Of a stretch of DNA of 64,000 bases, positions 5,482 to 45,189 are shown one piece after another. The notes beneath the pieces were generated by a model. It was not told the DNA's origin. It was given only the letters and a program-made list of their open reading frames with translations, and did no database searches. Numbering within the stretch: the first letter of the stretch is position 1; each line of letters opens with the position of its first letter. Source of the stretch: Klebsiella phage KP13-16; the sequence record OP617741.1. One strand, 5' to 3'. The position numbers and the translations under genes were made by a program.

Positions 5482-5565
5482 TATTCCTCCAAAATAAGAA
5501 GCCAGCATTAACTGGCTTAAAAGTAGATCCTTATTTTAGCTTTTATTCTGGTTTCAAATCTTGAT

Positions 5566-5973
5566 TTAAATCAGATAAGTTTGAAGAATAGTCTTTGCTA
5601 ATTGATTATCTACTGTTTTGCCAGCAGCTTTAGCAACCATGTTAATTTTACCCATGAAACTCATAGTGATTTTATCACCATTCTGTACCGCAGTATCCAA
5701 GAAATCACGAATCTCTTCTTCACTCAACTGTGCAGGAAGATAACTTTCCATAAAAGCAATTTCTTCTTCATACTGTTTCAGTTGTGCTTCATGACCTTCA
5801 AGACTTGCACGAGTAGATTTTACAGTAGACTTAATCAAGGCAATAGCATCTTCATCAGTTGAATTTTTATCTTGTGACAATTTTCCTAAAAGAAAGGTTA
5901 GAGTAGCAACCTTTTCTTTATCACCGGATTTACGAAAAGCAAGTTGGTCTTGTTTCATTTTCTCAATAATCAT
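5566..5973 (-). CDS. GatB/YqeY-domain protein
   Basis: ESYLPAQLSEEEIRDFL closely matches YqeY EEYLPEQLSEEEIEAIV; start MIIEKMK after AGGAGA, TAATG overlap with upstream gene. Confidence 0.7.
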   Translation of the reverse strand: MIIEKMKQDQLAFRKSGDKEKVATLTFLLGKLSQDKNSTDEDAIALIKSTVKSTRASLEGHEAQLKQYEEEIAFMESYLPAQLSEEEIRDFLDTAVQNGDKITMSFMGKINMVAKAAGKTVDNQLAKTILQTYLI

Positions 5974-6605
5974 TAATATTCTCCTATTCCACAATAAAGA
6001 GTTTCTCTTGTATTATTTAAATCTTCAGAAACTCTATTAATTTCTTTTTGTAAGATATCCTTATACTGAGGATATTTTTCTATCAAAGTTAAACCTTGAT
6101 TTATATACAACATTTGCCAAGCTCTATGTGCTTCAACAGGATCTGTGAAACCATGTATGGCAATATCATGAAACCTAGCCCTATATCGAGGTACTTTCTG
6201 ATATTTATTTTTCTGTTCAGAAACTCCCAATGGTAAATTATTTTTAGAGTATCTTTTTATAATATAATTATTTAAATCTTTACCTACAAAACCACAGGTG
6301 CTTGGAGAGTATATTTTACTAACCCCAGATAAGAGATCCTTGTCCAGTTCCTTTCCTTCCCAATCTTGGGTTTCCATCCAGGCACGAAAATTACCAAATG
6401 TCAACCATTCTTCACAAACACTACAACCTTTATAAGTAGGAAATCTTCTTTGGTAATTTTCACTATAACAACGCCTTAGCATATTCGTCCAACGATCATA
6501 ATATGGATCTCGCCAAAATACAACTTCTTTACCATTCATACGTTTACTTTTTTGAGTTATATCTTCTAGATCATTGTATCCCTTACCAAAAAGTAATTTA
6601 TTCAT
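5973..6605 (-). CDS. putative homing-endonuclease-like / AP2-type DNA-binding protein (paralog A)
   Basis: Shares W..ML.RCY, C.V.EEW..F.NF..W, LPLGVS, AH..WQ, NRETL blocks with ORF 10999-11661. Confidence 0.5.
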   Translation of the reverse strand: MNKLLFGKGYNDLEDITQKSKRMNGKEVVFWRDPYYDRWTNMLRRCYSENYQRRFPTYKGCSVCEEWLTFGNFRAWMETQDWEGKELDKDLLSGVSKIYSPSTCGFVGKDLNNYIIKRYSKNNLPLGVSEQKNKYQKVPRYRARFHDIAIHGFTDPVEAHRAWQMLYINQGLTLIEKYPQYKDILQKEINRVSEDLNNTRETLYCGIGEY

Positions 6606-7894
6606 TACAATTCTATCTCAAGTAAGTAATCAAGTCTAACTTGACTCAGGTCAAAGACTACAATCTCATCATTTCTCACCCCAGAGTATCCAGCCTTAGC
6701 CCAATAAGATTGGTATCCTTTTGGAGGGCGTTGACTTGTTGGTCCTGTTGGGGTATAAGCATTTCCAACAGCCACTGAAACTAGAAACATGTAAACTTTT
6801 CCATTCCCCTGACCACCACCCGTATAATACATGTTATCACAATATTGGAGACTTTTTGAAGATTGATTTGCGAAATACAATCCTGTTGAGAACATGGCCC
6901 CTGCCTTAACACCAGGACTATCTTTAGGCATCATTAACCCTTTACAGAAAATAGATAACAAATTAGCTACACGTGTTCCGTGCCACAGTTCATGAACATT
7001 ACCATACTCTGTGATAGCTTTATCAAATGGTGCTTGCTGATTTCCAAGATTAATTTTATAGATATTCTTAACTTTAGAACCCATGATGCGACCGCCGTGT
7101 TGGGCATTTTTACTTTCATTGTAGTAATTAACAATACGATCAATTGTAGCAGAATCTTCAACATGAGAGATACCAAAATTAAAGATTTTTTCTACTTCAA
7201 CTTCTTCTTTAGGTTTATCTTCCTGATTCTTTTTAAGTTCTTCAATAAGGTCTAATGTTTCCAGAAGTGCTTTACAGATTTCACGTTGTTCGTCAATGTT
7301 TTTGTGACTAAACAGCAAGTGACGTTTATCACGTGTAGTTGCAACTTTATTAGGAATAAGAACAAAATAAGAATCATTTAAAGTTAAGATCTCATCTTCA
7401 CCTTTACCACTCTTTTCATATTCATCCAAAAGGGATTCAATATTACCAAGATGGATCATTGCTTCTTCCACAGCAGCTTTCTTTACAACTCCTAAAGGAG
7501 TCTTAAACAGACCATCTTTTTCATCATATTTAATGTTAGTAGAACTGGTGATATTATGGATGTTTGCTTTAGCAATTGCTTGAATAAGATTACGACTTGT
7601 GTCGTCTTTACAATCAATTTGCTTAAGTGCAATGTCTACTACGTTAACTTTTTGAGTCAACCCAGTTTCACCAGAGACAGCTTCTAGTTGTGCTTCTTTA
7701 TAACCTTTCTTGATTTTAGATGCAACAAGACTGTCAAACTTCTTTTTACCACCAGAGTAGGAGGTAGTTTGAACCCCGCCACCTACCCGACCAAAACGAA
7801 CTGCAATATTTCCAACGTCATCTAAGGTTGCTTCATAGAATTTATTGTTATTATTCTTTGAATCAAACATGATTAGCATTTTACTCTCAGACAT
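6605..7894 (-). CDS. WGR-domain poly/mono-ADP-ribose polymerase (PARP)-like protein
   Basis: N-terminal KFYEA...RFGRVGGGVQ...KKGYKE matches WGR consensus; LWHGTR...GAMFSTGLYFANQSSKSLQYC matches the PARP1 H-G-S / Y-Y block and a later NDEIVVFD glutamate; RBS GGGGGTGAA. Confidence 0.85.
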   Translation of the reverse strand: MSESKMLIMFDSKNNNNKFYEATLDDVGNIAVRFGRVGGGVQTTSYSGGKKKFDSLVASKIKKGYKEAQLEAVSGETGLTQKVNVVDIALKQIDCKDDTSRNLIQAIAKANIHNITSSTNIKYDEKDGLFKTPLGVVKKAAVEEAMIHLGNIESLLDEYEKSGKGEDEILTLNDSYFVLIPNKVATTRDKRHLLFSHKNIDEQREICKALLETLDLIEELKKNQEDKPKEEVEVEKIFNFGISHVEDSATIDRIVNYYNESKNAQHGGRIMGSKVKNIYKINLGNQQAPFDKAITEYGNVHELWHGTRVANLLSIFCKGLMMPKDSPGVKAGAMFSTGLYFANQSSKSLQYCDNMYYTGGGQGNGKVYMFLVSVAVGNAYTPTGPTSQRPPKGYQSYWAKAGYSGVRNDEIVVFDLSQVRLDYLLEIEL

Positions 7895-9535: not shown

Positions 9536-10465
9536 TCACTTCTTATCTCCACTTTTACTTTTCATAATAGAGCTTAAAGATACAAGCGGGGTTTTGGGTA
9601 CAGGTTTCTTTCTAGGGACATAATTTTTGACAAATGGATTAAGATTTTTAGCAATCTCTGGGATGGACATTCCTAAGAGTTTGCTTGCTTCTACCATTTT
9701 TGATCCCACCTCTTTTCCTACAATTACCATGTTATCTTTAGTATAACCTTGGGTTTGGTCTAACAGGATAAAGACTTTTTGAGACAGTTCAATTGTCTCT
9801 CCTGTTAATTTGCACTTAGTTCCTGAAAACTTAGCTTTAAACTCTGCAAAACTAACTGTAAACTCTTTCTTTTCCGCAGAGGCATGTTTAGCCATATCAG
9901 AATAGTAAGAGGCAATGCGTACATCTGGGGCAATCTGTTTATCTGACATCTTCAGGACTCCTTGATCATTACGGGATAGTTCAATTTTTTGTGTTAAGAC
10001 ACCATTCAAGTTATCATAAAAATTTGTATAGTCAATATCTTTAAAATAATTTTTATAAACATTAGATTCAAATTTAATTAAATGGTTGTATTTATAAGAT
10101 AAAAACTTTTTATACCCTGGTGTAACTTTCTCTTGAACCACTCTCAAGATTGCTTCAGATGTTTCATTGATCCTTACTACTTGTACTTCGGTTTTGTCAA
10201 GAGCATAATCTTTTATTCTATTTACTGCTGCTGAAGTTAAACAAACATTCCCTCGTTCATAACCGAGTTTATCATCTAAACGTTCAATGGATATCTTATG
10301 TTTATCCTCATCAAAGGTAACACCAGTATAATCACACTTACCGTCATTCCGTAAGAAAAGTACTTTCATATCTTCAAGGGTTAATTTGAAATCAATACCA
10401 CGCTTCCTGGCATCTTTTTTCTTAGATTCAAAACGTTTTTTGAGTTCTTGTTCGTCTAACTTCAT
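9536..10465 (-). CDS. HNH-endonuclease-like protein with two tandem HNH-type repeats
   Basis: Two copies of C.YTG....S(I/L)(E/D)R(L/I)D...GY...N(V/M) pattern typical of phage HNH nucleases. Confidence 0.5.
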   Translation of the reverse strand: MKLDEQELKKRFESKKKDARKRGIDFKLTLEDMKVLFLRNDGKCDYTGVTFDEDKHKISIERLDDKLGYERGNVCLTSAAVNRIKDYALDKTEVQVVRINETSEAILRVVQEKVTPGYKKFLSYKYNHLIKFESNVYKNYFKDIDYTNFYDNLNGVLTQKIELSRNDQGVLKMSDKQIAPDVRIASYYSDMAKHASAEKKEFTVSFAEFKAKFSGTKCKLTGETIELSQKVFILLDQTQGYTKDNMVIVGKEVGSKMVEASKLLGMSIPEIAKNLNPFVKNYVPRKKPVPKTPLVSLSSIMKSKSGDKK

Positions 10466-10474
10466 ATAGACCTC

Positions 10475-10990
10475 TTATTTGATCACAGTGGCATTTTCAG
10501 GGATTTCAGCTTCATCAAGTACATAGATGGTAACATTGTACCCGGCTTCACACAATGTCTTTTTGATAATATCTTCAACAGAAGACCACTCTGCTCCTCC
10601 AAGACCTGCACCAAGTTTGGGAAGTCCAATTTTAAGATCCTGATTTTCAAAAAGCATTAGCTGTTTAGACATAGCTTTGAAAGAAGATTCAAGCTTATCT
10701 AAATCTGTATTTGGTTTTCCATCCTCACGTTTCCACCAACCCCACCGTCCGTATAAATTATAAATACTTAAATTATACAATGGAGAATGGGCATATGAGA
10801 AATCTCCAAATTTTTTAGGGTCTCCTTTAATAGTTGAATCATCTGCAATAGCGACTTCCGGGAAAGCTTTATCTAAAAGTGGGGCAATCCCACGTTTACG
10901 TGCATTAAAACAGTTACATTGTTGTGCAATAACATTTACTTCTCCACTTTTTGCAGCCAATAACAAATCCATCACTTTATATTTCAACAT
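10475..10990 (-). CDS. macro-domain protein (ADP-ribose binding / hydrolase)
   Basis: VNVIAQQCNCFNARKRGIAPLL and IGLPKLGAGLGG resemble the macro-domain N..N...GG.gv..ai and P.i..G.gG blocks. Confidence 0.6.
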   Translation of the reverse strand: MLKYKVMDLLLAAKSGEVNVIAQQCNCFNARKRGIAPLLDKAFPEVAIADDSTIKGDPKKFGDFSYAHSPLYNLSIYNLYGRWGWWKREDGKPNTDLDKLESSFKAMSKQLMLFENQDLKIGLPKLGAGLGGAEWSSVEDIIKKTLCEAGYNVTIYVLDEAEIPENATVIK

Positions 10991-10998
10991 ATTACCCC

Positions 10999-11661
10999 CT
11001 ATAATTTTAATGTCTCTCTATTTAAACTTATATCTTCTTTTATATCTTGGATCCTATCAAGTAAGGCAGTTTCAACAACCTTATTAAAGTGTGCAGATTC
11101 TTTATATTTTTGTAAGCTTTCCTTGATTGCAATAATTTTATAATCTTGCCACTGTTTATGAGCAAGGTCTGGTGAGTTATGATAACCTAGATAAACAATC
11201 TTACCAGATACATGACAATAAGCTTGGAACCTATCCCTATGATGAGGCTTTTTCTTCTTTTTAAGACTTACCCCTAGTGGGAGGTGTCCTCTTGCAGATC
11301 TACTATCTGTTAATAGGCAGTTAATATAGTTCGGAACCATAACGCAAGTCTCTTTACTATAAAGCTTATTACCTTTAATTAATATATCCTTATCAATGCA
11401 TAAATTATCAAAATCCTTAGATATGGCCCAAGCTTTAAAATTTGAAAAGTATTTCCACTCTTCACTTACAGTACAACCTTCATAGACAAAATAATATGGA
11501 TCTTTTTGTTTTAAATTATAACATCTTCTAAGAATGTCTTTCCATCGGCTATATATCGGACAGAGCCAAATTTGCTTCCATTTACCATCTTCAAATCTAT
11601 TTATAGAGACAGGGTCTACACTATCATTAATGCCATAGTTATGTACAAGTTTTTGTTTCAA
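10999..11661 (-). CDS. putative homing-endonuclease-like protein (paralog B of 5973-6605)
   Basis: Paralogous to 5973-6605 across whole length. Confidence 0.5.
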   Translation of the reverse strand: MKQKLVHNYGINDSVDPVSINRFEDGKWKQIWLCPIYSRWKDILRRCYNLKQKDPYYFVYEGCTVSEEWKYFSNFKAWAISKDFDNLCIDKDILIKGNKLYSKETCVMVPNYINCLLTDSRSARGHLPLGVSLKKKKKPHHRDRFQAYCHVSGKIVYLGYHNSPDLAHKQWQDYKIIAIKESLQKYKESAHFNKVVETALLDRIQDIKEDISLNRETLKL

Positions 11662-11675
11662 TCAAATCTCCAACT

Positions 11676-12059
11676 TTATAGACTAACTTGTTCTGCATCC
11701 TTCATCTCCATAAGTTTATCTAAATAATCTTTTGCCATCTTCTTATAATCTTCCGGGAAGTATTCACGATAGTAGTCTTCAAGAAGCATCATGATGCTTG
11801 GCTCTGGTCCACTTTCAATACTTGCACATTGCGGGCGCAAGTCGAAGAAATTCTTTTCTTTCTGTAACTTTGCTTCTTCGATTAACTTATCAACTTCTTT
11901 AATTTCAAGTTTAATCTTATGACAAGTTTTACTGAAATAACTTTGATCCATCTTTTTCCTGTTCACCGAACATTTTCGAAAGGAATGCAAATCTCTGATA
12001 AGTTCATTTCTAAAATTATTCAAAGCTATAACTAGTTTTTTGTTTTTATTCATTACCAA
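11676..12059 (-). CDS. hypothetical protein (paralog of 14443-14718)
   Basis: ALNNFRNELIRDLHSFRKCSVNRKK...EVDKLIEEAKL aligns with AVLRKQRNNVIEDFRHFKRDRVNRKW...EMDKLIAGVKL. Confidence 0.5.
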   Translation of the reverse strand: MVMNKNKKLVIALNNFRNELIRDLHSFRKCSVNRKKMDQSYFSKTCHKIKLEIKEVDKLIEEAKLQKEKNFFDLRPQCASIESGPEPSIMMLLEDYYREYFPEDYKKMAKDYLDKLMEMKDAEQVSL

Positions 12060-12292
12060 GGTGCCTCTTCTAATTGGGAATGGGAGATGCCCATCATATC
12101 TGCCAGATCGTCTTTTGTCAACAATTTTCTTTCAAACAAATTTGTAACCAGCAAAACAAACATCTCACCTACGTTATTATTAGATTGCTCTAATAGTAAC
12201 TGCTCAAGGTTAAAAGTTTTAGTATCACTATAATCCTCATTCGTAAGGAAGAAATGCTTTTGTTGTGGGTTTAGCATAGGTCTTTTCCTCAA
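12053..12292 (-). CDS. hypothetical protein
   Basis: 79 aa ORF. Confidence 0.4.
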   Translation of the reverse strand: MRKRPMLNPQQKHFFLTNEDYSDTKTFNLEQLLLEQSNNNVGEMFVLLVTNLFERKLLTKDDLADMMGISHSQLEEAPW

Positions 12293-12518
12293 ATCTCAGT
12301 TCGCCGTTAAGTTTTTCAATTCTATGTGGGAGAACATCCTGGCCCCACCAAGGCTTTTCATGAATACGATAACTCCAGACTGTCATGAAAGAGTCTTCTT
12401 CAGTGCCTTCTCCTTTGATTCTAACAGTCTTATTATAGATATCCCGGATAGTAGCTTCTATCCCATCTACTAAGACAATCTCATGAATTCTGTAAGGCAT
12501 CTGGTATTCATTAGTCAC
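12237..12518 (-). CDS. hypothetical protein (GTG start overlapping nadR-like stop)
   Basis: GTGA start/stop overlap, RBS GGAG. Confidence 0.4.
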   Translation of the reverse strand: MTNEYQMPYRIHEIVLVDGIEATIRDIYNKTVRIKGEGTEEDSFMTVWSYRIHEKPWWGQDVLPHRIEKLNGELRFEEKTYAKPTTKAFLPYE

Positions 12519-14116
12519 AAATATGCTCCAAGAATATGTTCTGAATAAACCTCTTCTAGAAAATCTTCCCAAAATTCCTTATCTACTGAAGAAGGATAAT
12601 GAGAGTTTTCTGCTAAAATTTCAACTTCCTGTACAACCTTCTCAAGTTCTTCCTGAACCTCATTGAAAGGCATGTTACCAGTCTTAACAGATAAAATCAA
12701 GGGATTTTGTTCCATAGGATAAACAAGATCACCATGCTTATAAATGTTAATAAGTTGATATCCACCACGAAGAGCGTGGCTCAGAGCTTTCCAATCCACA
12801 CCTTGATTAGCCTCAGCCAAACGTGCTCTATCGCCATATTCTTCCCACAGTTTAAATAAAGACGTCTTCATTTCTTTTACTGAGACTGTTTGTTGAAACT
12901 TTCTTCCAAGAACTTCATAAAAGATTTGATTTACACCATTTTTATCCGTAGCAAAGATCCAATATGCAAACTCATTGAGTGGAAAATATTCTTTGAAATC
13001 ACCAACCTTTTTAGAATCATCTATTGTTTTAATACATTCTACAACTTCACGTAATGCTGCAAGCCTGGAGCCTTTAATTCCATACTTAGATGCTTGTTTC
13101 CTTACATAACCAAAAAGCCCTGTCAGCTTTTTAGTATAAAAACGGTGACGATTGTCACGAATATATTGCCACGTTTCAGAATTGGTTACGAGCTTACTAT
13201 CTGTATCTTGCAAACGGAGAGGATCAGCCACCCACTCAACTTCTGGGGAAAGGTATAGCACCATGTCGTAGAAGTTATGAGCTTCTTCAACAGCCAACGA
13301 CATAAACATACCATCATTGTAGCTCACTTTACCAGCACAAATTGCAGAAAAATGTGTTATAAGATTGGTTGTATCTGAAATATGCACCACATGTGCCTGA
13401 TTTGAGTTACTAAATTCCTCAATACGGTGGATCATAGCAATCTTAAGATATGCTTCACGATCCATTAAAAATTCACTGCCATTGTACATCTGTTCGCAAA
13501 TATGCCGCCCTACTTCGGGTGTTGATGTTGTTCCATAGTGCTGTGCTAGAAGCTCAGTCATAGTGGATTTGCCAGTGCTCTCAACACCAATGATAGCTAC
13601 ACGTTTTACAAAACGAGGACGAGCTTGATCTGAAAGATACTCGAAGTTATCACGTAGATTAGTACGAATACGTGTTGCAGAGATATCCACTCCTGTACGC
13701 TCTGCATCCAACACAACATGCTCCACCTCTGGGAAATGCTCAGAGAAGTACTCAGTATACTCCGGCTCAGAAGAGAAAGCATGTGTCAACACTTCCCCTT
13801 CTGGGATTTTAGCACGAATCAACTCAGCATAAGCCTTACCACCTTCTGGATAACCAGGAATATCAGACTCATCCACATAATCTACAATCACTTTGTGTTG
13901 TAACCCTGAGTCTTGAATTAAAGATTTAAGATCCAATAAACGCTGGGTTAAACCTAGACGGTCTTGCATCCAAGGTGTTTGAGTGTCGTTAAACTTCTGG
14001 TCAAACGACAGAAACAGGTATAGCCGATCAATACCTGAATCTACAGCCATACGAATGAAGTTGACGTGTCCTGCTGTCAGGGGTGCAAATTTACCTAAAA
14101 TTAAGCCTACGTTCAT
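12515..14116 (-). CDS. nadR: NadR-like bifunctional NMN adenylyltransferase / ribosylnicotinamide kinase with extra C-terminal domain
   Basis: N-terminal GKFAPLTAGHVNFI (HxGH-type nucleotidyltransferase), central P-loop GVESTGKSTMTELLA as in NadR RNK domain, about 180 extra C-terminal residues of unknown family; no HTH. Confidence 0.8.
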   Translation of the reverse strand: MNVGLILGKFAPLTAGHVNFIRMAVDSGIDRLYLFLSFDQKFNDTQTPWMQDRLGLTQRLLDLKSLIQDSGLQHKVIVDYVDESDIPGYPEGGKAYAELIRAKIPEGEVLTHAFSSEPEYTEYFSEHFPEVEHVVLDAERTGVDISATRIRTNLRDNFEYLSDQARPRFVKRVAIIGVESTGKSTMTELLAQHYGTTSTPEVGRHICEQMYNGSEFLMDREAYLKIAMIHRIEEFSNSNQAHVVHISDTTNLITHFSAICAGKVSYNDGMFMSLAVEEAHNFYDMVLYLSPEVEWVADPLRLQDTDSKLVTNSETWQYIRDNRHRFYTKKLTGLFGYVRKQASKYGIKGSRLAALREVVECIKTIDDSKKVGDFKEYFPLNEFAYWIFATDKNGVNQIFYEVLGRKFQQTVSVKEMKTSLFKLWEEYGDRARLAEANQGVDWKALSHALRGGYQLINIYKHGDLVYPMEQNPLILSVKTGNMPFNEVQEELEKVVQEVEILAENSHYPSSVDKEFWEDFLEEVYSEHILGAYL

Positions 14117-25005: not shown

Positions 25006-25244
25006 AAGTTATTATTACAGCAGAGGCACGTGTTCATCTTTCTAAAATTGTAGAAATGAGTGAAGAAGATTATGAAAAATATAAAGAAATTGTTGTTGAT
25101 TCTACGGGTTTAACTTATAGAGAAATAGATCAAGAGATTGCAAAACTCGCAGATAAATATGATTTTGGTTATGGTGACGATATAGAGGACATGGAAGACC
25201 CGGAAGAGGTTACTTTTCAGGTTTTTAAAGAGGGTTCAAATTGA
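25002..25244 (+). CDS. hypothetical acidic protein
   Basis: ATGA-coupled. Confidence 0.45.
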   Translation: MKVIITAEARVHLSKIVEMSEEDYEKYKEIVVDSTGLTYREIDQEIAKLADKYDFGYGDDIEDMEDPEEVTFQVFKEGSN

Positions 25245-28200
25245 AAAAATTTTCACCTACAAAAGAGCAAAAAGAATCTTTAAATGTTTTTGAAATTGAA
25301 CAGATTCTAAAGATTTCAGCAAAGGCTGGTACAGGTAAGGCCCAACCACTCACAGCAGTAGTAAAAACCCCAAACGGGGATGTAGAATTAGGAAAAATTA
25401 ATATTGGAGATTCTGTATTTAGAAAAGATGGCAGTATTGGTAAAGTAACAGGAGTTTTTCCTCAAGATGGACTTCAACCAACATATAAAGTAACGTTTCG
25501 AGATGGATCTAGTACAGAATGTAATGGTGAGCACATTTGGAGTGTATATGGAGGGAAATATAAGGATAAAATTGTTAACAGAACTTTAAATGAAATGCTT
25601 GAAAAAGGCTTATATAATTCTCTGGGAGATATGAAGTATAAGATTCCTATGGCAGAACCAGTCCAATATCAAACAAAAGCCTTTGATATTGATCCATATG
25701 TTTTAGGAGTTTTAATTGGTGATGGCTATCTTTGTGGAACAACACCAGCGTTTAGTGTAGGAGAAAAAGATAAAGAAATCTTAGAGTTGGTTCAAAAAAT
25801 TTATCCAAATTGGATTTATGGGAAACATATTACAGGTAAAAATTGTATCCAGTATAGTATCTCAGAGCCAACGAAAGGTAGAGTAAATAATATTAAAAAT
25901 AAAATAGAAAATCTTGGTTTAAATGTAAAATCAAGCTTTAAATTTATACCTAATGAGTATTTATATGGAGATGTCCGCCAAAGAATCCAATTACTTAGAG
26001 GGTTAATGGATACAGATGGAAGTTGCGTTAAAAATAGAACAAGTTTTACATCAACATCAAAAAACTTAATATTAGACTTAAAGACTCTTGTTCAAAGTCT
26101 TGGTGGAACAGCCATTGAAACTTATGTAGATGTGAGGAGTGAAAATTCATGTTATACATTGAATATTAAAACTCCAATGTGTCCTTTTAAGGTTAAAAGT
26201 AAAGCTTCACTTTGGACTAAAAGCAGTAAAAATCCTCCATCAAGATATATCAAGAGTGTTGAGTATGTAGGTGAAAAAGAACAAGTCTGTATCTCCGTTG
26301 ACAGCGATGACCAATTATATTTAACAGATGAGTTTATTGTTACACATAATACATCAACACTTAAATTTATTGCTGAATCTCATCCTGAGTTGACTTTCTT
26401 ATATGTAGCTTTTAATAAGAGTATGGCAAACGATGCAGCCAAGAAGTTCCCAGATAACGTGCATGTTATGACCATTCATTCACTGGCATATCGTAACATT
26501 GGTAAGCACTATGCTCATAAATTGACTCGCCCAACTGGTCGTTATATTAATATGGCTGGGACAGGATCTGAGATTGCACAACATTACGGTATTTTTGATA
26601 TGAAAGACCATAATGGGGCGGTCTTGACTAAAAATTATCTTGGATTAATTGTAAAAGATACAGTTAATACTTTTGAAAGGTCTGATAAAGATAAAATTAC
26701 AGAATTTCATATTCCTAAGTTCCATATGGATGATGTCAAACGTCGATTTGCTCTTAAAGAATCTAAAGTTAAAAAGGAAATTTTGAGTGTTGCTAAAAAA
26801 CTTTGGGAAGATCGTTGTGACAAAGAGGAACGAATCCTTTGCACACATGATACTTATCTAAAACTGTATCAGATGAGTAAACCTAAGTTTGAAACTTATG
26901 ACTGTGTTCTGATTGACGAAGCACAGGATACTAGTGATGTAATGATTTCACTTTTCTCTAATATTAAACCTAAAATCGTCTATGTTGGTGATAAACACCA
27001 ATGTGTTTCTGGAGAAACTGTACTTGAGACACCTTGTGGTAATAAGCTTATGCAAGATCTTTCCATAGGAGATGAAGTAAAATCTTACAGAAACGGTCAA
27101 CAAGTCTATCGTAGAGTGTTGAATAAAACTTTATCAAATCGTACAGAAGGATTAAGTGTTGCTACTCGGAATGGTAATATCCTAGATATGACACTAAATC
27201 ATAAAATTTGGGCTACCAGTTTTAATTTACAAGAAAAACAGATGATTGTATATCTTATGTGGAGAAAAGACCTTGGATTCCGTGTTGGTATTACCAATAA
27301 GATAAAAGATAGTTATGGTAATATTAGTTTTGGTCAGAGAACTTTACATGAACGTGCACAAAAATTTTGGATTCTAGATGTTGTAGCTAATCGTGAGGAA
27401 GCTCTTGAAAAAGAACTTACATATAGCTTACAGTATGGTATCCCAATGTGCGTATATGAAGCAAAATCACGAGGTCTGAATCAAGATCGTATTAATAACA
27501 TTTTTAAAATTTTTGGCAAAAATGGTTTCATTTTATTATCAGAAAAAGATTACTCTTTTGAATACCCGCATTGGCACAATATCAATTCACGCTCAGTTAA
27601 CCGTAAAATGTTAACAGTACATTTGACAGCACATTGTGTCAAAGGTAGCCAAGTTTCTTTTGAGTGGACAGAGGAAGACATGCCAATTACTTCTACTTTA
27701 GAAGATGCTGGAATTAAAGTTACATATGCTAAAAAGAGTGGAAGATTTCGTGTACGTAAATGGTTTAGTAGCTACATTGAAGCATTAGAGTTTTCTAATG
27801 ATATTTGTGATTTAGTACCTTATGCATCAATTACAGAGCGAATGGCCTACACATCTGAGCACAAGTTAAATTTATTACCTGCGGCTTGTCTGTTTGAAGG
27901 GATGTCTGTACTAATAGATGATGGATGTGGAAATACTGTAATAGATGAGATTATCTCTATTACCCCACATAAAGGTGAGTATTTTGATATTGAAGTAGAA
28001 GATACTGCTAATTTCTTTGGTAATGGAATTCTTAGCCATAACTGCATTTACGGTTGGCGTGGATCAGTTAACGCTATGGAGAAAATCAGTGCACCAGAAG
28101 TTAAATTAACTCAATCATTCCGATTTGGTAAAGATATTGCAGATGTAGCAAAATTGATTATTGATGAAGAGGTAACAGGACTGGAATCTATTAAGTCAAT

Positions 28201-28837
28201 TGTTGGTGAGATTGATCCTAATAAGCCTTATACTGTCCTTTATCGTAAGAATGTGACCTTAATTTTTGAAGCACTTGAGATGATTGCAAGAGGTGAGAAA
28301 ATCTTCCTGAATATTGATGTAAGGGACTTTGTCTCTATGCTCGAATCTGCTCTATATCTTCACAATAAACAAATTAAGAAGGTTAAACATGAGCTTATTG
28401 TACCATACGCAACATGGGGAGATTTAGTCAATGAAGCACAATCTGATCCAAGTATGGGTAAACTCGTTAAAATTGTCCAGGAAGGTCGTGCTCAAGAAGT
28501 TATCAACAATTTAAACTTTAGTGAAAAGAGTGAAGCGACTGCTGATGTTATTTTGACAACTAGCCATAAAGCGAAGGGTCTTGAATGGGATCAGGTTGTC
28601 CTTGCAGATGATTTTAAGTCTTGTTATGACAGTAAAGGTAAACTTCAGAAAGTTGACCAAGAAGAAGATAACCTACTTTATGTAGCTTGTACTCGTGCAC
28701 GTAAAGTCCTGAAACCAAACAGTGTTGTTGAAGAAAAATTTCTGTTAAAAGGAATCCCTATCCCTTATAAAATTGCACATTTTGGTGTAGGCGATAGTGA
28801 AAGTATTGACCAATTTTTTGTTACTGAGGAGCAATAA
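25241..28837 (+). CDS. UvrD/Rep-like SF1 DNA helicase precursor containing two inteins
   Basis: Extein motifs: I AGTGK|T(STL), Ia TIHSLA, II VLIDEAQDT, III VGDKHQ|CIYGWRGS, IV LTQSFRF, V TSHKAKGLEWD, VI YVACTRARKVL; the two | positions are interrupted by intein-like inserts. Confidence 0.85.
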   Translation: MKKFSPTKEQKESLNVFEIEQILKISAKAGTGKAQPLTAVVKTPNGDVELGKINIGDSVFRKDGSIGKVTGVFPQDGLQPTYKVTFRDGSSTECNGEHIWSVYGGKYKDKIVNRTLNEMLEKGLYNSLGDMKYKIPMAEPVQYQTKAFDIDPYVLGVLIGDGYLCGTTPAFSVGEKDKEILELVQKIYPNWIYGKHITGKNCIQYSISEPTKGRVNNIKNKIENLGLNVKSSFKFIPNEYLYGDVRQRIQLLRGLMDTDGSCVKNRTSFTSTSKNLILDLKTLVQSLGGTAIETYVDVRSENSCYTLNIKTPMCPFKVKSKASLWTKSSKNPPSRYIKSVEYVGEKEQVCISVDSDDQLYLTDEFIVTHNTSTLKFIAESHPELTFLYVAFNKSMANDAAKKFPDNVHVMTIHSLAYRNIGKHYAHKLTRPTGRYINMAGTGSEIAQHYGIFDMKDHNGAVLTKNYLGLIVKDTVNTFERSDKDKITEFHIPKFHMDDVKRRFALKESKVKKEILSVAKKLWEDRCDKEERILCTHDTYLKLYQMSKPKFETYDCVLIDEAQDTSDVMISLFSNIKPKIVYVGDKHQCVSGETVLETPCGNKLMQDLSIGDEVKSYRNGQQVYRRVLNKTLSNRTEGLSVATRNGNILDMTLNHKIWATSFNLQEKQMIVYLMWRKDLGFRVGITNKIKDSYGNISFGQRTLHERAQKFWILDVVANREEALEKELTYSLQYGIPMCVYEAKSRGLNQDRINNIFKIFGKNGFILLSEKDYSFEYPHWHNINSRSVNRKMLTVHLTAHCVKGSQVSFEWTEEDMPITSTLEDAGIKVTYAKKSGRFRVRKWFSSYIEALEFSNDICDLVPYASITERMAYTSEHKLNLLPAACLFEGMSVLIDDGCGNTVIDEIISITPHKGEYFDIEVEDTANFFGNGILSHNCIYGWRGSVNAMEKISAPEVKLTQSFRFGKDIADVAKLIIDEEVTGLESIKSIVGEIDPNKPYTVLYRKNVTLIFEALEMIARGEKIFLNIDVRDFVSMLESALYLHNKQIKKVKHELIVPYATWGDLVNEAQSDPSMGKLVKIVQEGRAQEVINNLNFSEKSEATADVILTTSHKAKGLEWDQVVLADDFKSCYDSKGKLQKVDQEEDNLLYVACTRARKVLKPNSVVEEKFLLKGIPIPYKIAHFGVGDSESIDQFFVTEEQ
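25340..26350 (+). mobile_element. intein 1 (337 aa) with LAGLIDADG homing endonuclease domain, inserted in helicase P-loop
   Basis: Hint block A-like start AQPLTAVVKTPNG, LGVLIGDGYL and LLRGLMDTDGSC LAGLIDADG motifs, terminal IVTHN followed by Thr+1; begins with Ala not Cys/Ser. Confidence 0.7.
27002..28042 (+). mobile_element. intein 2 (347 aa) inserted in helicase motif III
   Basis: Starts CVSGETVLE (Cys1), block B TLNH, ends FFGNGILSHN followed by Cys+1; removal restores VGDKHQCIYGWRGS. Confidence 0.7.
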
Positions 28838-44537: not shown

Positions 44538-44864
44538 TTAGAATTCGTTATTGTAACCTTTGTACATCCCAGTATTGGCAATTGCATCTTTGATTAATCC
44601 ATCAAAGAGTTTTACAAACTGAGTGGCTGTTGAATTATAATCCCAATAATAGTCAGCAGTATCATTATAAGCACCGACACACAAAGAAGATCCGTTTCCG
44701 AAGTTTTCATGTTCAATAAATAGATAATCATTAAAGAATTGTTTTAGTTTCTGGTTATCAGTCTCAATGAAACGCCCCCAACCACAATAAGGACCTTCAT
44801 CATCACCTAAACCACGAATTTCATTAACAAACTCATTTTTCTTAATTTTGTACTTTATTTTCAT
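44538..44864 (-). CDS. hypothetical protein
   Basis: 108 aa. Confidence 0.5.
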   Translation of the reverse strand: MKIKYKIKKNEFVNEIRGLGDDEGPYCGWGRFIETDNQKLKQFFNDYLFIEHENFGNGSSLCVGAYNDTADYYWDYNSTATQFVKLFDGLIKDAIANTGMYKGYNNEF

Positions 44865-45189
44865 ATTTTATTTTTGCCCATTCGATTGCCGCAAGTATCA
44901 CATCACAATGACATGCCACTTCTTTGTTCGGCTGTTTACAGAAGCATACAAGGTCTTTACCATCTAAGTCAAGCAGATCTTGAATAGTAATTTTACCTGT
45001 ACGGATTTGTTGCCACAACCACACTCGGTATTGTTCAATAACCTCAGCACGATTTGAACCGTCTTTATTCAATCTAAATTTATTAGCAAACTTAGATCCC
45101 TTCAAACCAAGATGGGGCATAGCTCGCCCCATATATTCAGCATTCTCAGGGATCACTTTACCGATGTGGTAAAAGTTTAATACTCTCAT
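44842..45189 (-). CDS. DUF4326-like protein
   Basis: GKDLVCFCKQPNKEVACHCDVIL pattern. Confidence 0.45.
   Translation of the reverse strand: MRVLNFYHIGKVIPENAEYMGRAMPHLGLKGSKFANKFRLNKDGSNRAEVIEQYRVWLWQQIRTGKITIQDLLDLDGKDLVCFCKQPNKEVACHCDVILAAIEWAKIKYENKVQN

What the first reader, a model, noticed from the sequence alone, without database searches (positions are those of the whole stretch)
10475..10990. Macro-domain protein as candidate ADP-ribose eraser or reader partnered with the PARP
The 171-aa ORF has macro-like blocks (VNVIAQQCNCFNARKRGIAPLL and IGLPKLGAGLGG) but lacks the usual Gly-rich GGGV stretch, so it may be a divergent subfamily. It sits in the same operon block as the PARP-like gene and the NadR-like gene.
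Basis: partly seen in the sequence, partly recalled or inferred. Interest (0 to 1): 0.55.

Follow-up and report, generated by a model that had tools for sequence, protein, structure and literature searches.

The report
Common phage macrodomain hydrolase, odd allele
The gene really does encode an ADP-ribose-removing "macro" enzyme, but it belongs to a family found in hundreds of phages, one member of which protects phage T4 against a bacterial DNA-ADP-ribosylating toxin system, so it is probably not a dedicated partner of the neighbouring PARP gene.

Summary
The 171-aa ORF at 10475-10990 (-) is real. It is a confident macrodomain: AF2 pLDDT 95, and the best folds are TARG1, BT1257, DarG, Poa1p and SCO6735.

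It belongs to the ALC1/TARG1-like class, in the Gln-type subgroup (N26 plus an "NLYGQ" motif) that includes SCO6735 and T4 Tk.4. SCO6735 is a biochemically shown thymidine-ADPr DNA hydrolase. Tk.4 is AdfM, a genetically shown anti-DarTG2 factor. The PHROG family is phrog_335.

The family occurs in 662 phage records, whereas the PARP occurs in 15. None of 80 macro-seeded viral loci has a PARP within 10 kb, and PARP-less relatives keep the macro.

Five related Klebsiella-type phages or contigs do carry macro and PARP on the same strand, 3-5 kb apart. In other phage lineages, however, the macros sitting directly next to a PARP are true TARG1-type, with the Lys/Asp dyad. This protein lacks that dyad.

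The NadR neighbour is a lineage-specific chimera, not a conserved partner.

One oddity remains. The only nucleotide difference from phage FBKp34 across 1.37 kb changes the otherwise invariant active-site Gln82 to Arg.

Verdict: a new member of a known kind. The PARP-partner reading is only partly supported.

The parts
10475..10990 (-). Macrodomain gene, 171 aa (identical to UYL04440.1 of Klebsiella phage KP13-16). ALC1/TARG1-like class, Gln-type subgroup, phrog_335.
10995..10999 (-). Shine-Dalgarno-like GGGGG, 4 nt before the ATG. It overlaps the stop codon of the upstream HNH gene.
   Evidence: sequence read directly
10913..10915 (-). Codon of Asn26, invariant in 67/67 family members. It is equivalent to SCO6735 N27 and DarG N22.
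   Evidence: PMC9411070; PMC13309987
10883..10906 (-). Loop 1, N29-A36 (NARKRGIA). The family's GxG (TMGSGIA) is replaced by a basic RKRG in this sub-clade.
10745..10747 (-). Codon 82, CGG (Arg). FBKp34 has CAG (Gln). This is the position of TARG1 K84, DarG K80 and SCO6735 Q85. It is Gln in 66 of the 66 other alignment members and in 89 of 101 HMM hits; none has Arg.
10586..10627 (-). Loop 2, G122-W135 (GLPKLGAGLGGAEW), the diphosphate-binding loop. G129 corresponds to SCO6735 G128. G131 occupies the place of TARG1 D125.
6605..7894 (-). PARP homologue (WGR + PARP_reg + PARP catalytic domains). The H305-Y340-E410 triad is intact. It lies 2.6 kb downstream of the macro on the same strand.
12093..12121 (-). 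Promoter-like site (TTGACA-17-TATGAT) upstream of the block that holds the macro and the PARP. It matches the position of a promoter annotated in FBKp34.
   Evidence: consensus match only
5499..5518 (-). Terminator-like hairpin plus T run, closing the block after the PARP. It matches the position of a terminator annotated in FBKp34.
   Evidence: consensus match only
12515..14116 (-). NadR-like ORF, in fact a chimera. Residues 1 to about 306 are NadR (NMNAT plus a truncated RNK domain). The C-terminal ~227 aa are RlaP/phrog_388-like. It is not a conserved neighbour of the macro.

Best explanation
The ORF encodes a stand-alone macrodomain of the ALC1/TARG1-like class. It falls in the Gln-type subgroup typified by Streptomyces SCO6735, Bacteroides BT1257 and phage T4 Tk.4 (AdfM).

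Shown here: the fold, the class, and membership of the widespread phage family phrog_335.

Inferred mechanism: ADP-ribose sits in the cleft between loop 1 (N26...G34-I-A) and loop 2 (G127-A-G129-L-G-G). The family's Asn26/Gln82 pair positions the distal ribose so that water cleaves the ribose-C1'' bond.

The most likely primary substrate is ADP-ribose placed on thymidines of single-stranded phage DNA by DarT2-type host toxins. That would make this a counter-defence enzyme of the AdfM kind. The long basic loop after residue 82 (K87, R88, K92) and the basic loop 1 (R31, K32, R33) fit a nucleic-acid substrate.

A secondary activity on Glu/Asp-linked protein ADP-ribose made by the co-transcribed phage PARP is possible, because SCO6735 has both activities. 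The gene is not a PARP-specific partner, though.

In this particular phage (KP13-16) the active-site Gln82 is Arg. The allele may therefore be impaired or retargeted. This was not tested.
For: - Fold and class: AF2 pLDDT 95.4. Foldseek top hits are TARG1, BT1257, DarG, Poa1p and SCO6735, at TM 0.8-0.87 normalised to the target. The profile search against PDB gives BT1257 1e-21 and SCO6735 3e-17, ahead of TARG1 2e-13 and DarG 2e-9.
- Homology to T4 Tk.4: blastp 31% identity, E=2e-14; hhalign 99.8%, E=3e-30. Both proteins fall in phrog_335.
- Tk.4 is AdfM: knocking it out sensitises T4 to DarTG2 (bioRxiv 10.1101/2025.11.20.689424).
- A different, Lys-type phage macro, PhiKZ AdfM, removes DarT2 ADPr from DNA in vitro (PMC13309987).
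- SCO6735 cleaves thymidine-linked ADPr on DNA. It needs Q85 and N27 and has the extended basic mobile loop (PMC9411070). These positions align to Q82 (family), N26 and the 83-93 loop here.
- PADLOC's and NCBIfam's best hits are DarG.
- Independence from PARP: 662 against 15 phage records; 0 of 80 macro-seeded loci have a PARP; the macro is retained in the PARP-less relatives ukendt and P0008, and P0005's contig has no PARP in the 6.3 kb after its macro.
- The sister phage FBKp34 also carries a NADAR (DUF1768) gene. NADAR is the domain family of AdfN, the phage anti-DarTG1 factor. Whether the FBKp34 gene has that activity is not known.
Against: - No biochemistry exists for any member closer than 31% identity. 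The Tk.4 evidence is genetic, from a preprint.
- Gln82, which is essential in SCO6735 (Q85A and Q85E are dead), is Arg in this allele.
- The host's defence content (whether it has DarT2) is unknown.
- In the five nearest genomes or contigs the gene shares a strand with a PARP, and in FBKp34 it is the only ALC1-class macro in the genome. A PARP-related role is therefore not excluded.
- Iyer et al. 2022 (PMC9503650) argue that most phage macros act on soluble ADPr derivatives.
Confidence: 0.5

Rival explanations
1. Dedicated eraser (or reader) of the phage's own PARP. The PARP ADP-ribosylates host or phage proteins early in infection, and the macro trims or resets Glu/Asp-linked mono-ADPr. Together they would form a phage-borne writer-eraser pair.
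For: - Macro and PARP share a strand with no convincing terminator between them in the window, in FBKp34, in 05F01 and in metagenomic contigs L009 and L007.
- The PARP H-Y-E triad is intact.
- This is the only ALC1-class macro in the FBKp34 genome.
- PARP-macro coupling is real in other phages: 10 of 66 PARP loci have a TARG1-type macro (6 groups at under 70% identity), and in 8 of them (4 groups) it sits directly upstream.
- SCO6735 also de-modifies PARP1 E988Q.
- Cellulophaga phi4:1 has both a PARP and a Gln-type macro.
Against: - The PARP-adjacent macros elsewhere carry the TARG1 Lys84/Asp125 dyad and match human TARG1 at E=7e-25. This protein has Arg (family Gln) and Gly at those positions and matches TARG1 only at E=0.015.
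- Gln-type macros occur near a PARP at roughly background frequency: 3 of 66 loci, from 2 lineages. The background figure is my rough estimate.
- 0 of 80 macro-seeded loci have a PARP.
- The RKRG sub-clade member P0005 has no PARP in the 6.3 kb after its macro. Four unrelated genes separate the two here.
Confidence: 0.2
2. Hydrolase of soluble ADP-ribose derivatives. Candidates are ADP-ribose-1''-phosphate (the origin of the database label 'phosphatase'), O-acetyl-ADP-ribose from the phage Sir2, and ADPr-based immune signals or toxins.
For: - Poa1p (an Appr-1''-p phosphatase) and TARG1/OARD1 (an O-acyl-ADPr deacylase) are among the closest folds.
- FBKp34 encodes Sir2, RNA ligase, Nampt and NadR elsewhere in its genome.
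- Iyer et al. [quoted passage not shown]
- One sub-clade member (P0006) is followed by a cREC_REC gene.
Against: - The closest characterised relatives (SCO6735, Tk.4) act on, or protect, DNA.
- No Tpt1/KptA gene was seen among the window ORFs tested (only 10 large ORFs were scanned).
- The basic loops suggest a polyanionic macromolecular substrate.
Confidence: 0.15
3. In KP13-16 the protein is catalytically dead or altered because of Q82R. It would then act only as an ADP-ribose binder or as a stoichiometric DarT inhibitor, or it is a decaying gene.
For: - Q82R is the sole difference from FBKp34 in 1.37 kb.
- No other family member examined has Arg there: Gln in the 66 other alignment members, and 89 Gln, 9 Lys and 2 Met among 101 HMM hits.
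- SCO6735 Q85A and Q85E lose all activity, yet catalytically dead SCO6735 still inhibits DarT by binding.
- The variant is present in an independent re-assembly of the reads.
Against: - Arg resembles the Lys used at this position by TARG1, DarG and PhiKZ AdfM, so activity may persist.
- It is a single genome and a single substitution. It could be a neutral or laboratory-passage mutation.
- The ORF is otherwise intact.
Confidence: 0.1

Closest known systems
Phage T4 Tk.4 (AdfM, anti-DarT factor macrodomain; phrog_335)
   Same: Stand-alone phage macro of about 155-171 aa in the same PHROG. It shares the CNCF...GxGIA, NLY[GT]Q and GAG[LI]G motifs. hhalign probability is 99.8%, and identity is 31% over 127 aa.
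   Different: Tk.4 has a short loop after the Gln, a normal GSG loop 1 and Gln at the key site. T4 has no PARP. Tk.4's role rests on genetics in a preprint; no enzymology was cited.
Streptomyces coelicolor SCO6735 (PDB 5E3B) and Bacteroides BT1257 (2FG1/2AFC)
   Same: These are the best sequence-profile matches (3e-17 and 1e-21). They share the Gln-type active site (N27/Q85 equivalents), the Gly-rich loop 2 lacking the TARG1 Asp, and the extended basic mobile loop.
   Different: They are cellular proteins at about 20-24% identity. The window allele has Arg at the Q85 position and RKRG in place of GWG in loop 1.
DarG2 antitoxin macrodomain (Thermus aquaticus 5M3E, M. tuberculosis 5M3I) and PhiKZ gp104 AdfM
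   Same: Same fold and class. DarG is the best PADLOC and NCBIfam hit. The Asn is conserved.
   Different: DarG uses Lys80, has a C-terminal DarT-binding domain and sits next to darT. None of these applies here. The NCBIfam score is 27 against a cut-off of 250.
Human TARG1/OARD1, and the TARG1-type macros next to phage PARPs
   Same: Same fold; TARG1 is the top Foldseek hit.
   Different: TARG1's Lys84/Asp125 dyad is absent (Arg82 and Gly131 here). The PARP-adjacent phage macros keep the dyad and match TARG1 at E=7e-25, against 0.015 for this protein.
Yeast Poa1p (ADP-ribose-1''-phosphate phosphatase, 6LFR)
   Same: Same class (profile E=9e-9, Foldseek TM about 0.7). It is the source of the 'phosphatase' label carried by this family in phage records.
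   Different: Only 16% identity. Its active-site residues (for example H23 and S30) were not checked here. No RNA-splicing or Tpt1 context was seen.

Membership tests
Macro domain superfamily (PF01661 fold) | Three-layer alpha/beta/alpha fold with a central mixed six-stranded sheet | tested here: met
   AF2 pLDDT 95.4, pTM 0.90. 196 PDB matches at E<=1e-3. The listed top 50 are macrodomain structures, apart from three designed serine hydrolases (OSH55 variants).
Macro domain superfamily (PF01661 fold) | Pfam PF01661 gathering score | tested here: not met
   14.9 bits against a cut-off of 22, E=0.026. Several homologues do pass, and the family profile hits solved macros at 1e-21.
ALC1/TARG1-like macro class | Closest relatives are TARG1, DarG, SCO6735, BT1257 and Poa1p rather than MacroD or PARG types | tested here: met
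TARG1 (OARD1) proper | Catalytic Lys84/Asp125 dyad | tested here: not met
   Arg82 (Gln in the family) and Gly131 occupy these positions.
DarG2 antitoxin | Catalytic Lys80, a C-terminal DarT-binding domain and an adjacent darT gene | tested here: not met
   Single 171-aa domain. NCBIfam DarG gives 27 bits against a cut-off of 250. The neighbours are an HNH gene and an Srd-like gene.
Gln-type subgroup (SCO6735 / BT1257 / T4 Tk.4-AdfM) | Conserved Asn (SCO6735 N27) | tested here: met
   N26, invariant in 67/67.
Gln-type subgroup (SCO6735 / BT1257 / T4 Tk.4-AdfM) | Gln at the position of TARG1 K84 (SCO6735 Q85, essential) | tested here: not met
   Arg82 in this allele. It is Gln in FBKp34 (which differs by this one nucleotide) and in all 66 other alignment members. 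The lineage is a member; this allele deviates.
Gln-type subgroup (SCO6735 / BT1257 / T4 Tk.4-AdfM) | Gly-rich loop 2 (SCO6735 G126/G128) without the TARG1 Asp, plus an extended basic mobile loop | tested here: met
   G127-A-G129-L-G131, and the loop W83-P93 with K87, R88 and K92.
Gln-type subgroup (SCO6735 / BT1257 / T4 Tk.4-AdfM) | Hydrolysis of thymidine-linked ADPr on ssDNA, or protection from DarT2 | not testable with these tools
   Needs enzymology or plaque assays.
PHROG phrog_335 ('phosphatase') | Significant match to the family HMM | tested here: met
   E=1e-42. T4 Tk.4 gives 1e-65 against the same family.
Phage PARP-macro writer/eraser module | Macro immediately adjacent to the PARP and of TARG1 type | tested here: not met
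   Four genes (2.6 kb) lie between them, and the protein is not TARG1-type. Compare L034, L037-41/54, L039 and L047.
Phage PARP-macro writer/eraser module | Co-occurrence of the two genes across lineages | tested here: inconclusive
   They co-occur in five related genomes or contigs and in Cellulophaga phi4:1. Against that, 0 of 80 macro-seeded loci have a PARP, and XacN1 has no such macro within 20 kb of its PARP. No phylogenetic correction was done.

The most novel reading that the evidence does not exclude
In this Klebsiella-phage lineage, an AdfM-type macro has been recruited into a phage-autonomous ADP-ribosylation circuit with a PARP writer. The basic RKRG loop 1 and, in KP13-16, the unique Gln82->Arg switch would retarget the enzyme from DarT2-modified DNA to PARP-made (poly)ADP-ribose, or convert it into a high-affinity reader or trap. 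The single-nucleotide change would then be an adaptive allele of the kind seen for AdfA and AdfB.
Probability: 0.12. Interest if true: 0.65.

Novelty: new member of a known kind. Interest (0 to 1): 0.35.

Why it matters
If the main reading is right, this is one more orphan-antitoxin-like counter-defence gene (AdfM type). It would be useful mainly for predicting which DarTG2-bearing Klebsiella strains a therapeutic phage can overcome.

The natural Q82/R82 pair (FBKp34 against KP13-16) differs by a single nucleotide within the macro gene. The two genes therefore form a ready-made isogenic test of the proposed Gln-dependent mechanism of this macro subgroup.

The side observation has more general interest. 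True TARG1-type macros sit directly upstream of phage PARPs in several uncultured phage lineages. That points to genuine writer-eraser ADP-ribosylation modules in phages, but it concerns other genomes, not this gene.

Tried and rejected
- ICP1 AdfB as a relative: rejected. AdfB is a 77-aa non-macro DarT binder, even though ICP1-like JSF12 does carry a homologue of this macro.
- Promoter/terminator scan as evidence for an operon: the counts do not exceed the shuffles (34 against 35 promoters; 7 against 5 terminators). Only the two sites that coincide with FBKp34's annotation are used, and they are labelled as consensus matches.
- NadR as a functional partner: rejected. The ORF is a NadR/RlaP chimera. 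The intact nadR+pnuC module sits in a different gene neighbourhood in KP13-26, with no macro or PARP annotated within the 13 kb read, and about 70 kb from the macro in FBKp34.
- A second macro or PARG as the 'real' PARP eraser in this lineage: none was found in the window or the whole FBKp34 genome with a Gln-type HMM and a TARG1-type HMM, and none is annotated. MacroD, PARG and ARH classes were not searched with their own models.
- XacN1-type jumbo phages: no family member within 20 kb either side of the PARP. The rest of those genomes was not read.
- Pfam scan of 76 immediate PARP neighbours: only Macro recurs (4 members). No PARG or ARH was found.
- Papers on FBKp34 and KP13-16: neither the FBKp34 genome paper nor the listing of papers that mention KP13-16 showed any discussion of the macro or the PARP.
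- Residue-level inspection of the AF2 model around R82 was not possible, because the coordinates are not exposed.

Full report
**What is there**

The minus-strand ORF at 10475-10990 encodes 171 aa. It starts at an ATG preceded by a GGGGG run 4 nt upstream. It is packed 8-9 nt from its neighbours: an HNH endonuclease gene upstream (10999-11661) and an Srd-like/HNH gene downstream (9536-10465).

The exact protein is UYL04440.1 of Klebsiella phage KP13-16. The nearest record in the phage collection is vB_KpM_FBKp34 (Stephanstirmvirinae), whose orthologue is annotated 'putative phosphatase'.

**Is it a macrodomain?**

Yes. The other evidence is strong:
- PHROGs gives phrog_335 at E=1e-42.
- phmmer finds BT1257, SCO6735, DarG and TARG1.
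- A profile of 67 homologues hits BT1257 at 1e-21, SCO6735 at 3e-17, TARG1 at 2e-13, DarG at 2e-9 and Poa1p at 9e-9.
- AlphaFold2 with that alignment gives pLDDT 95.4 and pTM 0.90.
- Foldseek ranks TARG1, BT1257, DarG, Poa1p and SCO6735 first.

**Which kind of macrodomain?**

All the best relatives belong to the ALC1/TARG1-like class. The missing 'GGGV' is a MacroD-type motif and is not expected in this class.

Within the class the family carries an invariant Asn26 and an 'NLYGQ' motif. The profile alignment to TARG1 puts the Gln (position 82) on TARG1 Lys84, and Gly131 on TARG1 Asp125 (the TARG1 sequence was confirmed).

That is the SCO6735/BT1257 arrangement. In SCO6735, Gln85 replaces the catalytic Lys. 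Q85A, Q85E and N27S cripple the enzyme. A longer basic 'mobile loop' follows. The enzyme efficiently removes DarT-made ADP-ribose from thymidines in DNA and also de-modifies PARP1 E988Q (PMC9411070). The window protein has the long loop (W83-P93, with K87, R88 and K92).

**Link to known phage biology**

T4 Tk.4 is a clear homologue: blastp 31% identity, E=2e-14; hhalign 99.8%; same PHROG. It also has 'NLYTQ'.

A 2025 preprint shows that tk.4 is the single T4 gene needed to resist DarTG2, and names it AdfM. A 2026 paper shows that a different, Lys-type phage macro (PhiKZ gp104, also named AdfM) removes DarT2 ADP-ribose from DNA.

FBKp34 additionally carries a DUF1768/NADAR gene. NADAR is the domain family of AdfN, the phage anti-DarTG1 factor. 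I found no NADAR homologue in the window.

The most economical reading is an AdfM-type counter-defence hydrolase. This is inference from homology at 20-31% identity, not a demonstration.

**Is it the PARP's partner?**

The PARP gene (6605-7894) is real. It has WGR, PARP_reg and PARP catalytic domains and an intact H-Y-E triad. It lies 2.6 kb downstream on the same strand.

For coupling:
- Macro and PARP share a strand in FBKp34, in 05F01 (macro 45% identical) and in metagenomic contigs L009 and L007.
- It is the only ALC1-class macro in the entire FBKp34 genome.

Against coupling:
- The macro family is in 662 phage records and the PARP in 15.
- None of 80 macro-seeded IMG/VR loci (1.37 Mb) has a PARP within 10 kb.
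- The PARP-less Phapecoctavirus ukendt keeps the macro in the same early region.
- P0005, a member of the same RKRG sub-clade, has no PARP in the 6.3 kb that follow its macro. P0008 (54% identical, outside the sub-clade) has none within 10 kb either side.

**What a real PARP-macro pair looks like**

I seeded 66 IMG/VR loci with the PARP.
- Ten of them have a macro of true TARG1 type, with Lys at the K84 position and Asp or Glu at the D125 position. These fall into 6 groups at under 70% identity.
- One of these macros matches human TARG1 at E=7e-25.
- In eight of the ten loci (4 groups) the macro sits within 50 nt upstream of the PARP.
- Macro is the only Pfam family that recurs among the immediate PARP neighbours.
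- Gln-type macros lie near a PARP in only 3 of the 66 loci (2 lineages). That is about what chance would give for a gene this common in large myoviruses; this background is my rough estimate and is not corrected for phylogeny.

So phage PARPs do have macro erasers, but of a different subtype from this gene.

**NadR**

The 533-aa ORF at 12515-14116 is a chimera.
- Its first ~306 residues are 93-96% identical at the DNA level to the nadR of KP13-26 and KP2025. There nadR is 355 aa and is followed by pnuC.
- Its last ~227 residues are the RlaP/phrog_388-like sequence shared with FBKp34.
- In FBKp34, nadR and pnuC lie about 70 kb from the macro.

The adjacency is therefore a lineage-specific rearrangement, not a conserved block.

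**An unexplained detail**

The macro gene differs from FBKp34's at one nucleotide out of 516. That is also the only mismatch between the two phages from 10379 to 11750. It changes CAG to CGG at window position 10746, turning Gln82 into Arg.

Position 82 is Gln in all 66 other alignment members. Among 101 HMM hits in the fetched loci it is Gln in 89, Lys in the 9 aligned TARG1-type proteins and Met in 2; Arg never occurs. The variant is present in an independent Logan re-assembly of run SRR21837335.

A random single substitution in that 1.37 kb would hit this codon non-synonymously about 0.2% of the time (my estimate, and post hoc). It could be inactivating, a specificity switch towards Lys-like chemistry, or a neutral or passage mutation. 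I cannot tell which.

**Verdict**

- Observation: confirmed.
- Interpretation: partly supported. Macro, yes. Eraser is likely for the family. A PARP-specific partnership is not supported as the primary role but is not excluded. NadR partnership is rejected.
- Novelty: a new member of a known, widespread phage macro family, with a sub-clade-specific basic loop 1 and one unusual allele.

Noticed in passing
L034:9521-9967, L037/L038/L040/L041/L054:9534-9959, L039:9510-9989, L047:1149-1568 (each directly upstream of a PARP); L035:8738-9187; L018:3321-3875: True TARG1-type macros sit immediately upstream of PARP genes in several uncultured phage lineages. They have Lys at the TARG1 K84 position and Asp or Glu at D125, and one matches human TARG1 at E=7e-25. 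This looks like genuine phage writer-eraser ADP-ribosylation modules. Macro is the only Pfam family that recurs among PARP neighbours.
   Followed up: partly
window 10746 (codon 10745-10747, minus strand): This is the single nucleotide difference from FBKp34 across window 10379-11750. It converts the family-invariant active-site Gln82 to Arg. It is also present in a Logan re-assembly of SRR21837335.
   Followed up: partly
window 12515-14116 (-), junction near 13192-13201: The NadR-like ORF is an in-frame chimera. Its N-terminal ~306 aa are NadR, with the RNK domain truncated relative to the 355-aa NadR of KP13-26. These are fused to ~227 aa of an RlaP/phrog_388 nucleotidyltransferase-like C-terminus. 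The pnuC gene that follows nadR in relatives is missing here.
   Followed up: partly
window 5973-6605 (-) and 6500-7000: An HNH (phrog_953) gene is inserted right after the PARP relative to FBKp34. The adjoining 3' end of the PARP is the most diverged stretch between the two phages (88 mismatches in 500 nt). This looks like a homing-endonuclease co-conversion tract. A paralogous HNH gene (10999-11661) abuts the macro.
   Followed up: no
window 6605-7894 (-): A full WGR + PARP_reg + PARP protein with an intact H305/Y340/E410 triad in a Klebsiella myovirus. PARP homologues occur in only 15 of 50,697 phage records. No experimental study of a phage PARP turned up in one literature search.
   Followed up: partly
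L160:3726-4265 (FBKp34 gene _012); whole window for comparison: FBKp34 carries a DUF1768/NADAR gene, the same domain family as the anti-DarTG1 factor AdfN. tblastn finds no homologue in the 64-kb window. A DUF4326 gene is shared (window 44842-45189).
   Followed up: partly
window 25241-28837 (+): A 1198-aa UvrD-type helicase ORF is interrupted by intein/Hint and LAGLIDADG domains.
   Followed up: no
L157:10508-10858: In the contig carrying P0006 (62% identical to the macro), the macro gene is directly followed by a cREC_REC (PF20274) gene. Aravind's group has predicted that this domain processes ADP-ribose derivatives.
   Followed up: no
window 9536-10465 (-): The gene directly downstream of the macro matches both HNH endonuclease PHROGs and the Srd anti-sigma / 'decoy of host sigma70' PHROGs. 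It is annotated 'anti-sigma factor' in FBKp34.
   Followed up: no
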